Positions 28,314-30,903 of a stretch of DNA of 32,000 nt are shown one piece after another. Position 1 is the stretch's first letter; each line of letters begins with the position of its first letter. The notes under the pieces are model-generated. The model was not told the origin of the DNA and did not search any database. It saw only the letters and a program-made list of their open reading frames with translations. Position numbers and translations under genes: made by a program. Source of the stretch: Coprobacillaceae bacterium (GTDB lineage: Bacteria > Bacillota_I > Bacilli_A > Erysipelotrichales > Coprobacillaceae); the NCBI GenBank assembly GCA_963675515.1, contig OY776328.1, forward strand, positions 1-32,000. Direction: 5' to 3'.

Positions 28314-28362
28314 ATAGCGATAGGTAAGACTTTGATGTTATCTCCATCTTTTCCCCCGCTCC

Positions 28363-28396
28363 ACACCGTGCATGCGACTTTCACCGCACACGGCGT
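28363..28396 (-). ncRNA. Group II intron domain V
   Basis: The 34-nt sequence ACGCCGUGUGCGGU-GAAA-GUCGCAUGCACGGUGU shows a GAAA tetraloop, a 2-nt bulge and a lower helix with a G.U pair in the triad position (CGC rather than AGC). Confidence 0.8.
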
Positions 28397-28412
28397 TCCA
28401 TCTAATTCTTCT

Positions 28413-30207
28413 TTAATTTATTTCAGTTAAATTACATCTCTTACGCAACATGTTCAGTTTTTTAAGCTGTGTTTTGTTTAGATTGAACTTTTTCAATAGC
28501 GTTTTTTCAGTTTCCTGATTATTACCGTGTATTAGTTTATGTACTTCTTTGTGAATAATGATTAGATTGTCAAAATTATCGGTTCCACCATCTCCAACGG
28601 AAACAATGTGATGACAGTGTATTTCCTCGGCCGTTAGAAACAACTGGGTGATTCCACAACGCCCTTTTTGCATTGAATACTTTGAGATTGTGTTATCCCG
28701 ATATTCCACACTTCCGTTTCCAATTGGCAGTTCCAGCAACCTCTTCATAACTGAGGTTACATTATTTTCTAATCGTTTATAAACTAATTTGCGCCCCTCT
28801 TGGGTATAGTTGCATATGTTTTGATTGAAGTTTGTCTTCAATTTCCACTGCGTATCCGCCAGTGGAAACAATGAAATGGCTCCAATCGTGAATGTGCGAT
28901 AGTTATTCTTAAATAACTTCTTATACAACGGTGGGGGACTCCTGGGTACTTCATATTTAGCTATTGGTTTCAATCGGTTGTACAAGGTCTTGAGCGTCTG
29001 ATGGTAAACATTTCTAAAATCTATATTTACATGTGTTGCAGCTTCATAATAATTTCTTATCCCCAGTATATATGAATTATAATTGTGGATATTCTTGGAA
29101 ATTGTATGACGCTGTATCTCGATAACTCTTTTCCTTATTTCCGCTTTGATTTTTATTTTACTTTTCGCCGATACAAAGGTATTCGCAACGTACTTCTTGC
29201 GCTTTGGTACCAGCTTCATTTCAAACCCCAAATAGTCCGACCTACGTTTCCTTAGATTGGTAATCTTTGACTTTTCAGGTGAAACATTAAGTTTAAGTTC
29301 ATTCTTCAGATATTCCTTGACCGCATGATATATCCTTACCGCATTTTTATAACTGCAAGTGAAGACTCGTGCGTCATCGGCATACCTTACCGCATACATT
29401 TCTTTTAGATTGGTTTTCTTGAGTACTCTATACTTATATGGACATTTATAATCAGCATTGAATGTTTCCCATTGATTGCTTATCCACCAGTCCAGATCGT
29501 TCAACACTACGTTTGAAAGTAATGGCGAAAGCACTCCTGCCCTGTGGTGTCCCACAGTGTGGGACACCTACTCCTTTGATGGGAGCTTTCAGCATTCTAC
29601 TTATAATCGTCAGTACCTGATTATCCTTGATGCCGATATTCCAAAGTTGTTTGATTAACTTGGTATGATTGACATTGTCAAAGAACGATTCGATATCCAA
29701 ATCAACAACATAGTGATTGTGCGTCATATTGGCGATATGGCAACATCTTGACAAAGCATTATGGGTTGAGCGATTGGCTCTAAATCCATATGAATGCTTA
29801 TGAAACTTCGCTTCGCAGATTGGTTCAAGTATCTGTTTGAACATCTGTTGAATCAGTCTATCATGCATCGTCGGTATTCCCAATGGTCGTAATTTTCCAT
29901 TAGGTTTAGGTATTTCTACTCTTCTTACCGTTTTTGGTTTATAGTCCAATAGCGATAGTCTAATATCCTGAATAAATTTCTCAACGTTTTCTATCTTGTA
30001 ATCATCAATAGTAAGGCCGTCAGTGCCTTTAGTGTGACTTCCGGTGTTGCTTTTGATGTTTCGATAGGCGAGGAGTATATTGTTCCTGGATATCACCAGA
30101 TTATAAAGATCTATCCCGTAAGTATCATTGTTTAAACTCATTTGATACAACCAGTCAAAAGTTTCCTGCATACTGTAATATTCGTTGTTTCGTAATCCCG
30201 TGCTCAC
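28413..30207 (-). pseudogene. Intron-encoded protein (reverse transcriptase / maturase X / HNH endonuclease), disrupted by a 1-nt frameshift
   Basis: ORF 29452-30207 carries RT domains 0-4 and ends ..GTPQG. ORF 28413-29567, in another frame, continues GVLSPLLSNVVLNDLDWW.., RYADD, a maturase-like region and the HNH motif ..HCHHIVSVGDGGTDNFDNLIIIHKEVHKLIH. The canonical GTPQGG(V/I)xSPLL block is split by one extra base near 29538. Confidence 0.85.
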
Positions 30208-30903
30208 CGATGGATTATTCCTTTCGTTTAGAACAATTGTTTCCCATCATCTTATCAGACCCTGTGAGCTTCATTTAACTGTAACTGATTTTTAAAGAAC
30301 CAGACTTGGGGCTATCCCTCCACCATTTTTCGTGGCTTCATCGGTACTGTGCCCCTACTTTCACGAGAATAAAAACACTTCGTTTACACTTATAGTTACC
30401 GTCCCGATAACAGTCGTTTAATAGACGTTTCTCGCTTACAACGTTCCAAATATTCTAGCTTTACATTTATCCTTAGGTTCCTGCTATGAGCCTGATGAAT
30501 TATACCCTCATTGTCGAGTATCTCGAATTTCATATCAACGATTCTTACTTTTCGATATTCATCGTTGCGCACGCAACATGCCACCTTTCAATAGCACGAC
30601 TTTCTAGACCCGTACATTCGCAGTTTCGTCAGTCCTTACACGGACATTCTCACCATAGATAATTTATAGCGTCCCGGCCTATCCTTTACCATATGATATA
30701 TCACTTAGGTATTGTTCAGCCGACTTCACCTAGCTTCACACATAATTTTACTGTTATAACCTCATGCGTGTAGGAGTATCAGACTACTTGTTTCAGGCTA
30801 ACATGACAGCCATCATTCCAAGTATTGAATATTCAGTTGTGATTTTCCTATTGGAAAATCCTCCCATTTCATGCCTAGGCACTTATAGGGAAACGTTTCG
30901 CAC

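What the first reader, a model, noticed from the sequence alone, without database searches (positions are those of the whole stretch)
28314..30903. Group II intron sits inside the catalytic acid/base glutamate codon of a conserved sugar-catabolic enzyme gene
**What the sequence shows.** Two GH1 ORF fragments, 30904-31426 and 27403-28313, are separated by 2,590 nt. That segment starts GUGCG, ends AU, and contains a textbook domain V and an RT/maturase/HNH ORF, all in the same orientation as the host gene. Removing exactly 28314-30903 joins ..TTC AAT G to AA ATC AAT.. and gives ..KYWLTFN-E-INAGT.. and a 477-aa protein.

**Established knowledge.** In GH1 enzymes the NE of this T(F/L)NE(P/I) block carries the general acid/base glutamate. 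Bacterial group II introns are usually found in intergenic DNA, behind terminators or inside other mobile elements. They are seldom found in the most conserved motif of a housekeeping or catabolic ORF.

**Inference.** Enzyme activity should depend entirely on accurate splicing. The conserved motif may act as a stable homing site, in the way inteins and group I introns target conserved sites.
Basis: partly seen in the sequence, partly recalled or inferred. Interest (0 to 1): 0.75.

Follow-up and report, generated by a model that had tools for sequence, protein, structure and literature searches.

The report
GH1-homing group II intron, frameshifted maturase
A mobile self-splicing intron really does split the catalytic glutamate codon of a sugar-utilisation enzyme gene; it belongs to a small intron lineage that targets conserved motifs of this enzyme family, and its own protein gene carries a conserved one-base frameshift that selection has nevertheless kept readable on both sides.

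Summary
Window 28314-30903 (-) is a complete group II intron: GUGCG...CUAU ends and two Rfam matches. Removing it joins TTCAATG|AAATC into an uninterrupted 477-aa 6-phospho-beta-glucosidase that is collinear with E. coli BglA. Syntenic intron-less orthologues (96% and 94% aa identity) exist in other assemblies.

The correction is that the intron-encoded protein (IEP) is not one ORF. An extra A at 29538 (GGC-A-GGA inside the RT motif GTPQGG) splits it into 251-aa and 384-aa ORFs.

New findings:
- The same intron sits at the same TFN|E site in a second GH1 paralogue of the source genome, and an empty allele of that paralogue exists.
- Sister copies (94-96% nt) sit at another conserved GH1 motif (YK|ED) or in transposase genes.
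- EBS1 and EBS2 co-vary with each copy's own 5' exon.
- The extra A is present in every close copy, from five datasets. Both IEP halves are under strong purifying selection (dN/dS 0.05-0.16), and the selected frame switches at the A.

The conserved frameshift suggests a programmed +1 shift or a split IEP, which I found unreported.

The parts
30904..31426 (-). GH1 (6-phospho-beta-glucosidase) exon 1. It encodes residues 1-174 plus the first base (G) of the Glu-175 codon.
   Evidence: The as-is ORF 30875-31426 reads through into the intron and ends [12 protein letters not shown].
30910..30915 (-). IBS2 (TGACTT), 5'-exon positions -12 to -7.
   Evidence: It is 6/6 complementary to EBS2 AAGTCG. 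It co-varies with EBS2 across the copies.
30904..30909 (-). IBS1 (TCAATG), 5'-exon positions -6 to -1. These bases are the codons ..(T)TC AAT G.
   Evidence: It is 6/6 complementary to EBS1 CGTTGA, counting one G.U pair. Own-exon pairing is 6/6 in all six introns compared; pairing with another copy's exon is never above 5.
28314..30903 (-). Complete group II intron, 2590 nt, GUGCG...CUAU.
   Evidence: Full-length relatives at 94-96% nt identity are L129, L130, L135 and L136. Relatives at 75% are L044 and L046.
30663..30841 (-). Part of ribozyme domain I (Rfam RF02004 group-II-D1D4-5).
   Evidence: 109.8 bits against a gathering score of 34.5, E 2e-24.
30597..30602 (-). EBS2 (AAGTCG), intron positions 302-307. 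It lies in the only hypervariable block of domain I among otherwise near-identical copies.
   Evidence: Alignment A1.
30535..30540 (-). EBS1 (CGTTGA), intron positions 364-369.
29539..30207 (-). IEP part A, in frame A. It begins at GTG 30207 or ATG 30171 and covers the RT finger/palm motifs up to ...GTPQG (GGC at 29541-29539). As written, the frame runs on to a TGA at 29452-29454.
   Evidence: Pfam RVT_1 profile positions 1-132. dN/dS is 0.05-0.14 among four copies.
29546..29568 (-). Perfect 10-bp hairpin, GGUGUCCCAC-ACU-GUGGGACACC. It ends 4 nt before the GGC shift codon. It contains the frame-B GUG (29567-29565) and is preceded by AAAGGAG (29577-29571).
   Evidence: Folding energy is -19.7 kcal/mol, against a mean of -8.6 (sd 3.5, minimum -15.9) for the same stretch in 79 in-frame relatives.
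29538..29538 (-). The extra A that shifts the IEP frame by +1. The sequence reads CAG GGC A GGA GUG where relatives read CAR GGN GGN.
   Evidence: It is present in all seven close copies and absent from all other matched relatives (about 80 sequences).
28413..29537 (-). IEP part B, in frame B. It begins GVLSPLLSN and carries YADD, the X/maturase region, the D region and the HNH endonuclease, ending at TAA 28413-28415. The frame-B ORF as written starts at GTG 29567.
   Evidence: Pfam RVT_1 profile positions 124-204 plus HNH. dN/dS is 0.09-0.16. YADD and HCHH were located.
28361..28398 (-). Ribozyme domain V.
   Evidence: RF00029 alignment. The 42 nt spanning domains V and VI match exactly in 46 loci from many gut bacteria.
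28314..28360 (-). Ribozyme domain VI. The inferred bulged branch-point A is at 28321, 8 nt from the 3' end.
   Evidence: RF00029 alignment and coordinates. The branch point is inferred from the pairing and was not tested.
27403..28313 (-). GH1 exon 2. It starts with AA, completing the Glu-175 codon, and carries INAGT..., the IVENG nucleophile motif and the stop codon.
31454..31939 (-). PTS EIIA domain. This is the 3' end of the upstream EIIBCA beta-glucoside transporter gene of the same operon; the gene runs off the window.
   Evidence: Pfam PTS_EIIA_1. The syntenic loci L132 and L134 show a BglG-type antiterminator, a 630-aa EIIBCA, GH1 and then rplK.

Best explanation
**What it is.** A retromobile group II intron with an endonuclease-bearing IEP. 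Its relatives sit in Bacillus, Enterococcus and Clostridium plasmids and in gut Erysipelotrichales. It reverse-spliced into the sense strand of a chromosomal bgl-type 6-phospho-beta-glucosidase gene, exactly after the first base of the acid/base Glu codon (TTC AAT G|AA).

**Why this site.** The site was chosen by RNA-DNA base pairing. EBS2 AAGUCG pairs with IBS2 UGACUU, and EBS1 CGUUGA pairs with IBS1 UCAAUG. The first 3'-exon base is A. The sequence encoding KYW(L/M)TFNE is conserved even at the DNA level between paralogues, so the same intron variant has also homed into a second GH1 paralogue of the same genome. A sister variant with different EBS1 and EBS2 uses another conserved GH1 motif (RYK|ED).

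**Consequence for the host gene.** Expression of the enzyme requires precise splicing of the pre-mRNA. The ribozyme and both exons look intact.

**The IEP.** Its gene carries a lineage-wide one-base insertion in RT motif 4, yet both halves are maintained by purifying selection. The IEP is therefore most likely still made. I favour a +1 ribosomal frameshift at GGC-AGG-A: a rare Arg codon in the A site and a strong hairpin 4 nt upstream. The alternative is two polypeptides, with the second started at the GUG that follows AAAGGAG. Either route would keep RT/maturase levels low.

**Status of each step.** Shown: anatomy, boundaries, EBS/IBS covariation, occupied and empty alleles, the conserved frameshift, and the selection pattern. 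Inferred: that splicing occurs, that the IEP is produced, and the frameshift mechanism.
For: - **Intron identity and boundaries:**
- **Intact, collinear 477-aa product:**
- **Empty syntenic orthologues:** 96% and 94% aa identity, in loci with the order antiterminator, PTS EIIBCA, GH1, rplK. GH1 dN/dS against them is 0.026.
- **Second paralogue occupied at the same site:** P0254 ends TFN+GAKRFPISA. Its empty allele (L131) has a site identical from -12 to +7.
- **Sister copies:** L129, L135 and L136 sit at YK|ED in GH1 genes; L130 and L128 sit in transposase genes. The spliced GH1 of L129 is intact at 499 aa.
- **EBS/IBS covariation:** own EBS1-IBS1 pairing is 6/6 in all six introns; own EBS2-IBS2 pairing is 5-6 of 6 in five of them.
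- **The frameshift is real and shared:** the same extra A occurs in seven copies from five datasets, and every other matched relative (about 80) is in frame.
- **No intact version exists:** no full-length IEP above 72% identity was found among 5.8 billion proteins.
- **Selection on both halves:** dN/dS is 0.05-0.14 upstream and 0.09-0.16 downstream, with dS 0.14-0.29; the wrong frames give 1.0-4.5.
- **Indels respect the frames:** the only indel inside the ORFs is 3 nt, and the other indels, all 1-2 nt, lie in non-coding parts.
- **The selected frame switches at the A:** in the 46 codons on either side, synonymous:non-synonymous variable codons are 10:7 in frame A upstream (1:15 and 2:13 in the other frames) and 11:8 in frame B downstream (2:16 and 4:16 in the other frames).
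- **Possible shift-site features:** AGG makes up 8 of 237 Arg codons in host genes, and a hairpin unique in strength lies just upstream.
Against: - No RNA or protein data exist. Splicing and IEP production are not shown.
- For a classical +1 slip, the P-site tRNA-Gly on GGC cannot re-pair on GCA.
- Eight other in-frame AGG codons occur in the IEP, so AGG alone does not define a shift site.
- The hairpin and the AAAGGAG-GUG pair fit internal initiation equally well.
- All frameshifted copies are closely related (94-99% nt). The conservation of the shift-site sequence itself therefore has little statistical power.
- Two other GH1 genes that carry copies of this intron are decayed (L135, L001), so insertion can end in gene loss.
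An intact helper IEP from another intron in the same cell cannot be excluded.
- The window lineage has 14 private amino-acid changes against 1 in L132, although its branch omega is still only about 0.03.
Confidence: 0.8

Rival explanations
1. This is a dead insertion. The intron can no longer splice because its maturase is frameshifted, so the GH1 gene is a recently inactivated pseudogene.
For: The IEP frame is broken. Decayed intron plus decayed GH1 pairs exist in related assemblies: L135 and L001. The window lineage has 14 private amino-acid changes against 1 in L132.
Against: Both exons are open and complete. GH1 dN/dS is 0.026, and about 0.03 on the window branch. The ribozyme's domains V and VI are identical to those of many relatives, and no private change hits an invariant domain I position. 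Both IEP halves are under purifying selection in all copies. The same variant has recently homed into a second paralogue, which needs an active RNP.
Confidence: 0.12
2. The extra A is a sequencing or assembly error, and the IEP is really a single ORF.
For: Single-base indels are the commonest assembly error.
Against: The identical insertion is present in the window, in L001, L129 and L135 (ENA ERZ21869602), in L130 (a 2.57 Mb genome), in L128 (Logan SRR23823845) and in L136 (Logan SRR27544748). The flanking bases differ between copies (CAG/CAA, GAGTG/GAATA), and the site is not a homopolymer. Split ORFs are also on record for further contigs.
Confidence: 0.02
3. The IEP is made as two separate polypeptides rather than by frameshifting. 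The first is residues 1 to about 210 plus a 29-aa junk tail. The second starts at GUG 29567 behind AAAGGAG. The two fragments would assemble into an active RT/maturase.
For: Frame B opens with UAG-GUG directly after an AAAGGAG Shine-Dalgarno-like sequence. The hairpin would mask this start until ribosomes translating frame A open it, which is translational coupling. Purifying selection on both halves fits this model as well.
Against: The Shine-Dalgarno-like sequence lies only 3 nt from the start codon. The split falls inside the RT palm, between motifs 4 and 5, and I know of no split group II RT. The 11 codons of frame B upstream of the shift vary too little to test for selection.
Confidence: 0.3
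4. The frameshifted IEP is non-functional. These copies are non-autonomous elements that are spliced and mobilised in trans by an intact IEP of a related intron in the same cells.
For: Related introns with intact IEPs (75% nt identity) occur in Erysipelotrichales genomes (L044, L046). The source genome carries several intron copies and apparently nested ones.
Against: A trans-mobilised passenger ORF should drift. Instead dN/dS is 0.05-0.16 with dS up to 0.29, there are no stop codons, and the only indel inside the ORFs is in frame.
Confidence: 0.1

Closest known systems
Ll.LtrB / Ef.PcfG introns in relaxase genes (Staddon et al. 2004; LaRoche-Johnston et al. 2016, PMC5072309)
   Same: A bacterial group II intron with an En+ IEP sits inside an ORF, at a sequence that encodes a conserved catalytic motif. 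The same site is invaded in several homologous genes, and host enzyme activity depends on splicing.
   Different: The hosts there are plasmid or ICE relaxases, whereas here they are chromosomal sugar-catabolic GH1 paralogues. Here two EBS variants use two different conserved motifs of one enzyme family. The IEP here carries a conserved frameshift; LtrA is a single ORF.
Group II introns in bacterial housekeeping genes, e.g. recA of Geobacillus kaustophilus (Chee & Takami 2005, cited in PMC2504315) and cyanobacterial CL/ML introns (PMC4424553)
   Same: A rare class of bacterial group II introns that interrupt conserved chromosomal genes and must splice for the gene to function.
   Different: Those are mostly single-site residents. 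Here there is presence/absence polymorphism between related assemblies, and spread among paralogues.
Intron families that diversify their EBS to colonise new sites (abstract of PMC4181065 on RmInt1; the Thermosynechococcus intron family, from my own knowledge)
   Same: Near-identical ribozymes differ almost only in EBS1 and EBS2, and each copy matches its own exon.
   Different: Here the retargeted sites are mostly conserved motifs of one protein family (6 of 8 sites are in or next to GH1 genes).
Programmed frameshifting that throttles the enzymes of mobile elements: IS1/IS3 -1 frameshifting, Ty1/Ty3 +1 at rare AGG/AGU codons, prfB +1 (from my own knowledge)
   Same: A mobile-element enzyme gene is split into two frames, both are conserved, and a rare Arg codon sits at the shift site.
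   Different: It has not been reported for group II intron IEPs in the searched literature. There is no re-pairing slippery codon, and the mechanism is unproven.
E. coli BglA / bgl-type operons (PDB 2xhy)
   Same: A 6-phospho-beta-glucosidase with NE acid/base and ENG nucleophile motifs, placed downstream of a BglG-type antiterminator and a PTS EIIBCA gene.
   Different: The gene is interrupted by a 2.6-kb intron. The operon lies directly upstream of rplK-rplA.

Membership tests
Group II intron (ribozyme + IEP retroelement) | 5' GUGYG and 3' AY boundary sequences | tested here: met
   The intron starts GUGCG at 30903 and ends ...CGCUAU at 28314.
Group II intron (ribozyme + IEP retroelement) | Domain V, and domain VI with a bulged A | tested here: met
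   RF00029 gives 61.6 bits against a gathering score of 40, covering the full model. The bulged A is at 28321, 8 nt from the 3' end; this is inferred from the pairing.
Group II intron (ribozyme + IEP retroelement) | Domain I with EBS1 and EBS2 complementary to IBS1 and IBS2 of the 5' exon | tested here: met
   Both pairings are 6/6 bp in the window copy. Pairing co-varies across six introns with different exons.
Group II intron (ribozyme + IEP retroelement) | A single IEP ORF (RT, X, D, En) in domain IV | tested here: not met
   All the domains are present, but they are split over two frames by an extra A at 29538. The repaired protein matches TIGR04416 at 345 bits against a cut-off of 300.
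Group II intron (ribozyme + IEP retroelement) | Splicing and retrohoming activity | not testable with these tools
   The evidence is indirect only: occupied and empty alleles, the same site in two paralogues, and EBS retargeting.
Bacterial class B / IIB-type introns | IEP clusters with class B reference IEPs, and the RNA shows the class-specific structure | not tested
   Only leads are available: an En+ IEP, a Firmicute host, Rfam subfamily D1D4-5, and 66-68% nt identity to Bacillus cereus group, Enterococcus faecalis and Clostridium perfringens plasmid introns. No reference-set phylogeny was available. The first 3'-exon base is always A, so delta-delta' pairing and EBS3-IBS3 pairing cannot be told apart.
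GH1 6-phospho-beta-glucosidase | Full-length GH1 domain that passes the curated family cut-off | tested here: met
   Pfam PF00232 covers residues 2-474 with E 2e-135. NCBIfam NF007154 gives 645.8 bits against a cut-off of 624. PDB 2xhy BglA matches at 1e-182.
GH1 6-phospho-beta-glucosidase | The acid/base motif TFNE and the nucleophile motif (I/V)ENG are present and aligned | tested here: met
   LTFNEIN and MIVENG align with the corresponding BglA motifs.
GH1 6-phospho-beta-glucosidase | PTS operon context | tested here: met
   A PTS EIIA domain lies directly upstream. The syntenic loci show an antiterminator, EIIBCA and then GH1.
GH1 6-phospho-beta-glucosidase | Enzyme activity of the spliced product | not testable with these tools
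   No data.
Programmed +1 ribosomal frameshift | The shift site is conserved in diverged copies, both frames are under purifying selection, and the selected frame switches at the site | tested here: met
Programmed +1 ribosomal frameshift | A recognisable shift-prone codon pair and a stimulator | tested here: inconclusive
   The site reads GGC AGG A. AGG is rare, at 3.4% of Arg codons, and a strong hairpin lies 4 nt upstream. However, the P-site tRNA cannot re-pair, and AAAGGAG-GUG offers an alternative route.
Programmed +1 ribosomal frameshift | A trans-frame protein product | not testable with these tools
   No data.

The most novel reading that the evidence does not exclude
A group II intron lineage has specialised on conserved catalytic and structural motifs of one sugar-hydrolase family (GH1), which it uses as durable homing sites. 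It expresses its reverse transcriptase/maturase through an obligatory, conserved +1 recoding event at GGC-AGG-A, helped by an upstream hairpin, or alternatively as a split RT. This would be the first case of recoding in a group II intron IEP. It could act as a throttle that lets the intron live inside host genes that are in use.
Probability: 0.4. Interest if true: 0.8.

Novelty: new variant of a known kind. Interest (0 to 1): 0.62.

Why it matters
Bacterial group II introns are thought to avoid functional genes (PMC4424553). A lineage that lives inside catabolic genes of gut Firmicutes offers a natural system for three questions. How is an intron tolerated in an expressed bacterial gene? How does conserved coding sequence serve as a homing site? 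How does EBS change open new sites? Here the lineage spreads between paralogues through conserved motifs, and intact occupied, decayed occupied and empty alleles were all found across related assemblies.

The conserved frameshift is the more surprising part. If the IEP is made by +1 recoding or as two fragments, that would be a new mode of regulating a retroelement RT/maturase. It would bear on engineering targetrons and group II RTs, and on annotation pipelines that discard such IEPs as pseudogenes. The host consequence is practical too: beta-glucoside use by these bacteria would hinge on splicing efficiency.

Tried and rejected
1. **First EBS1 guess.** I took TATTGAAAG (intron 311-319) to be EBS1. 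I rejected it because it is invariant among copies whose exons differ. The true EBS1 (364-369) co-varies with the exon.
2. **Genome-contig scan.** A scan with a 42-nt domain V/VI pattern returned 46 loci, but most share only the last 90 nt or so with this intron. The source genome was not among them.
3. **Metagenome-contig scan.** A scan with the repaired IEP gave only relatives at 71% identity or less, all in frame, and no close copy.
4. **Look-ups in the source genome.** P0013, P0254 and P0136 returned nothing. I therefore could not read the second occupied paralogue, the apparent nested copies, or any possible helper IEP at the DNA level.
5. **Terminator scan downstream of GH1**. The strict criteria found none. 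A GGTCCCC-GCAA-GGGGGC hairpin followed by TTTTC is visible at about 27355-27375 but was not scored.
6. **Class assignment.** No reference set was available. Tourasse & Kolsto 2008 did not help.
7. **Literature searches.** Searches for a frameshifted or recoded group II IEP, and for a group II intron in a GH1 gene, found nothing relevant. The library holds open-access papers only.
8. **Organism identity.** It was not determined. The window's 16S could not be compared with any named collection.
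Full report
**1. The observation**

Read on the minus strand, window 30904-31426 and 27403-28313 are the two halves of one GH1 gene, separated by 2590 nt.
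- The insert begins GTGCG directly after TTCAATG and ends CGCTAT directly before AAATCAATG.
- Rfam finds group-II-D1D4-5 (RF02004) at 30663-30841, with 109.8 bits and E 2e-24.
- Rfam finds the domain V/VI family (RF00029) at 28314-28398, with 61.6 bits and E 5e-11. Both matches are on the host-gene strand, and this one ends exactly at the proposed 3' splice site.
- Joining the exons gives a 477-aa protein. It has a single Pfam GH1 stretch (residues 2-474, E 2e-135) and passes the NCBIfam 6-phospho-beta-glucosidase cut-off (646 bits against 624).
- The protein aligns end to end with E. coli BglA (2xhy, E 1e-182). Nothing is missing or duplicated at ...KYWLTFNEINAGT....
- The split codon is G|AA, the Glu of the NE acid/base motif.

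**2. The correction**

The IEP is not one ORF.
- ORF 29452-30207 (251 aa) covers RVT_1 profile positions 1-132.
- ORF 28413-29567 (384 aa), in the +1 frame, covers RVT_1 positions 124-204 plus HNH.
- The break is a single extra A at 29538. The sequence reads CAG GGC A GGA GUG. All other matched relatives (about 80 sequences) read CAR GGN GGN, which encodes the RT-4 motif GTPQGG(V/I)LSPLL.
- Deleting the A gives a 585-aa protein that matches TIGR04416 (group II RT/maturase) in one stretch.

**3. Context**

Three intron-less orthologous loci were recovered: L132, L133 and L134.
- They carry a 477-aa GH1 that is 96% or 94% identical at the protein level and 88% or 85% at the nucleotide level.
- L132 shows the full gene order: a BglG-type antiterminator, PTS EIIBCA, GH1, rplK, rplA, rplJ, rplL and rpoB. 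L133 and L134 show parts of it.
- The window therefore holds a bgl-type operon next to the ribosomal-protein cluster, and the intron is the only difference.
- GH1 dN/dS against these orthologues is 0.026. A three-taxon decomposition gives about 0.03 on the window branch. There is no sign that the interrupted gene has decayed.

**4. Relatives of the intron**

- *Distant relatives.* The whole intron is 66-68% identical to introns annotated ltrA on Bacillus cereus group, Enterococcus faecalis and Clostridium perfringens plasmids. It is 75% identical to full-length introns in two Erysipelotrichales assemblies, L044 and L046. The L046 copy sits in a large surface-protein ORF and has an intact 621-aa IEP.
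- *Domains V and VI.* A 42-nt stretch is exactly conserved in 46 loci from many gut taxa.
- *Close copies.* Copies at 94-99.7% nt identity were recovered from four other datasets:
  - L129, L135 and L136 lie in other GH1 genes, at TAC/TAT AAA G|AA GAY AT (motif RYK|ED, around codon 70).
  - L130 lies in an IS3-type transposase gene, and L128 in an IS66-type transposase gene.
  - L001 is a copy truncated at both ends that abuts a decayed GH1 gene.
- *One more distant case.* L032, an Erysipelotrichaceae MAG, has the 3' end of a related intron abutting a GH1 gene at the same YKED position.

**5. How the site is chosen**

- Domain I of the close copies is almost identical except for two short blocks (alignment A1).
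- Block 1 (intron 302-307) reads AAGTCG, AGTGGG, ACCAGG or ATGCTG. Block 2 (intron 364-369) reads CGTTGA, CTTTGT, CGTTGT or TGTCGT.
- Each block is complementary to its own 5' exon. Block 1 pairs with positions -12 to -7, and block 2 with -6 to -1.
- In a matrix of six introns against six exons, the own EBS1-IBS1 pairing is 6/6 in every case and no other combination exceeds 5. The own EBS2-IBS2 pairing is 5-6 of 6 in five of the six.
- These blocks are therefore EBS2 and EBS1. The first 3'-exon base is A in every case.
- The window variant recognises UGACUU-UCAAUG|A, which is the DNA encoding (L/M)-T-F-N-E.

**6. Homing among paralogues**

- P0254 is a 207-aa product recorded from the 2.88 Mb source contig. 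It is a GH1 paralogue with 60% identity, and it ends ...KYWMTFN followed by GAKRFPISA. That tail is the same read-through peptide the window's exon 1 acquires from the first 27 nt of the intron.
- The same intron is therefore at the same site in a second paralogue.
- P0260 (locus L131) falls in the same 90%-identity cluster as P0254 and is an uninterrupted 492-aa allele. Its site, GGATGACTTTCAATG|AAATCAAC, equals the window's from -12 to +7.
- By contrast, the TFNE sites of the GH1 genes in L129, L001 and L032 carry mismatches in IBS2, IBS1 or both, and they are empty.
- Of eight insertion sites known for the sublineage, six are in or next to GH1 genes.
It is the same principle as described for Ll.LtrB and Ef.PcfG in the catalytic His motifs of relaxase genes (PMC5072309). 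It also fits the general rule that bacterial introns rarely sit in functional genes (PMC4424553, PMC2504315).

**7. The frameshift is conserved and both halves are under selection**

- *It is shared.* All seven close copies, from five datasets, have the extra A, although neighbouring bases differ (CAG/CAA; GAGTG/GAATA). Split ORFs with the same GTPQG-R... ending are on record for further contigs.
- *No intact version.* No full-length IEP above 72% identity exists among 5.8 billion proteins.
- *Selection.* Among the window, L129, L130 and L128, dN/dS is 0.05-0.14 for the part upstream of the A (frame A). It is 0.09-0.16 for the part downstream (frame B). dS is 0.14-0.29. The same downstream nucleotides read in the other two frames give 1.0-4.5.
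- *No disruption.* There are no stop codons. The only indel inside the ORFs is 3 nt, and the other indels, all 1-2 nt, lie in non-coding regions.
- *The switch is sharp.* In the 46 codons before the A, synonymous:non-synonymous variable codons are 10:7 in frame A, against 1:15 and 2:13 in the other two frames. In the 46 codons after it, the counts are 11:8 in frame B, against 2:16 and 4:16.
- A drifting pseudogene, or a passenger ORF mobilised in trans, would not show this pattern. Both halves are evidently translated and needed.

**8. Mechanism (inferred)**

To keep GTPQG-GVLSPLL, the frame must change at GGC-A-GGA. Two routes fit the anatomy.

*(a) A +1 ribosomal frameshift.*
- The A-site codon in the original frame is AGG. 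AGG accounts for 8 of 237 Arg codons in the window's host genes.
- A perfect 10-bp hairpin (window 29568-29546) ends 4 nt before GGC. Its energy of -19.7 kcal/mol is the strongest among 86 homologous stretches, where in-frame relatives average -8.6 (sd 3.5).
- From my own knowledge, rare AGG codons and refolding upstream hairpins are both reported to favour +1 shifts.
- Against this route, tRNA-Gly cannot re-pair on GCA, and eight other AGG codons in the IEP are read normally.

*(b) Two polypeptides.*
- Frame B opens with UAG-GUG (29567-29565) directly behind AAAGGAG.
- That GUG lies in the 5' arm of the hairpin, which suggests coupled internal initiation.

I put about 0.45 on (a), 0.3 on (b), and the rest on trans-complementation or something else. 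Either route would limit IEP supply, as frameshifting does for IS transposases. I found no report of recoding in a group II IEP (open-access library only).

**9. Is the host gene functional?**

- Evidence for:
  - Both exons are intact, and omega is low.
  - The ribozyme motifs are intact, and the EBS/IBS pairing is perfect.
  - The IEP is under selection.
  - The L129 host gene is also intact after conceptual splicing, at 499 aa.
- Evidence against: L135 and L001 show that intron-bearing GH1 genes can decay.

I conclude that the window gene is most likely expressed through splicing (about 0.8), but this needs RNA data.

**10. Verdict**

The principle of homing to a conserved catalytic motif is known. 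Four things are new:
- the GH1 host family;
- two EBS variants that use two GH1 motifs;
- spread among paralogues, with empty alleles found in other assemblies;
- above all, the lineage-wide frameshift in an IEP that remains under purifying selection.

I rate it a new variant of a known kind, with interest 0.62.

Noticed in passing
window 1-10476: Two tandem rRNA operons lie on the minus strand. The 23S genes are at 1-2884 (cut by the window edge) and 5787-8687, the 16S genes at 3148-4673 and 8951-10476, and a 5S gene at 5611-5718. The two 16S copies have identical bit scores. ARAGORN found no tRNA gene anywhere in the window, including the 16S-23S spacers.
   Followed up: partly
window 12155-26677 and 25870-25981: The classical cluster of tuf, fusA, rpsG, rpoC, rpoB, rplJ and rplA-rplK lies immediately downstream of the bgl operon, with an L10 leader (RF00557). 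A catabolic PTS operon abutting rplK is conserved in the intron-less relatives L132 and L133; L134 ends at the GH1 gene.
   Followed up: partly
source genome (not readable); proteins P0124 and P0136: P0124 starts with the translation of this intron's domain V (CGESRMHGVERGK) fused directly to the IEP C-terminal region (LKTNFNQ...). P0136 reads ...GTPQGG, without the frameshift-type R, and then LCGYRHNPPCG..., which could be the 5' end (GUGCG...) of another intron. These suggest nested or rearranged intron copies (twintrons) in the source genome.
   Followed up: partly
L001:4390-6877 and 6869-7895: An intron copy 99.7% identical to the window's lacks its first 85 nt and last 17 nt. It is fused to a GH1 paralogue that is truncated at its 5' end, frameshifted, and still has an intact TFNEIN. 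This looks like a deletion derivative of an intron-bearing GH1 gene.
   Followed up: partly
L002-L047: The 42-nt domain V/VI core is exactly conserved in introns from Lachnospiraceae, Faecalibacterium, Erysipelotrichales and Negativibacillus. It also occurs in MAGs labelled Cetobacterium, Collinsella, Gastranaerophilales and Cyanobacteria. Either this intron clade transfers widely between gut bacteria, or some contigs were mis-binned.
   Followed up: no
window 30921-30945 versus L131 (empty paralogue site): Two GH1 paralogues that are only 60% identical in protein share 40 of 41 nt across AAAGACAAAGTAAAATACTGG(C/A)TGACTTTCAATGAAATCAA, including synonymous positions. Possible causes are gene conversion between paralogues, exon co-conversion during homing, or codon bias. 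This was not resolved.
   Followed up: no
window 27355-27375 (-): The hairpin GGTCCCC-GCAA-GGGGGC followed by TTTTC lies just after the GH1 stop codon. It is probably the operon terminator, but it falls below the scan's T-run criterion.
   Followed up: partly
P0275: A 779-aa GH1-containing protein scores 1317 bits against the 477-aa query at 71% identity. This suggests a tandem or fused GH1 in a 5-kb ENA contig.
   Followed up: no
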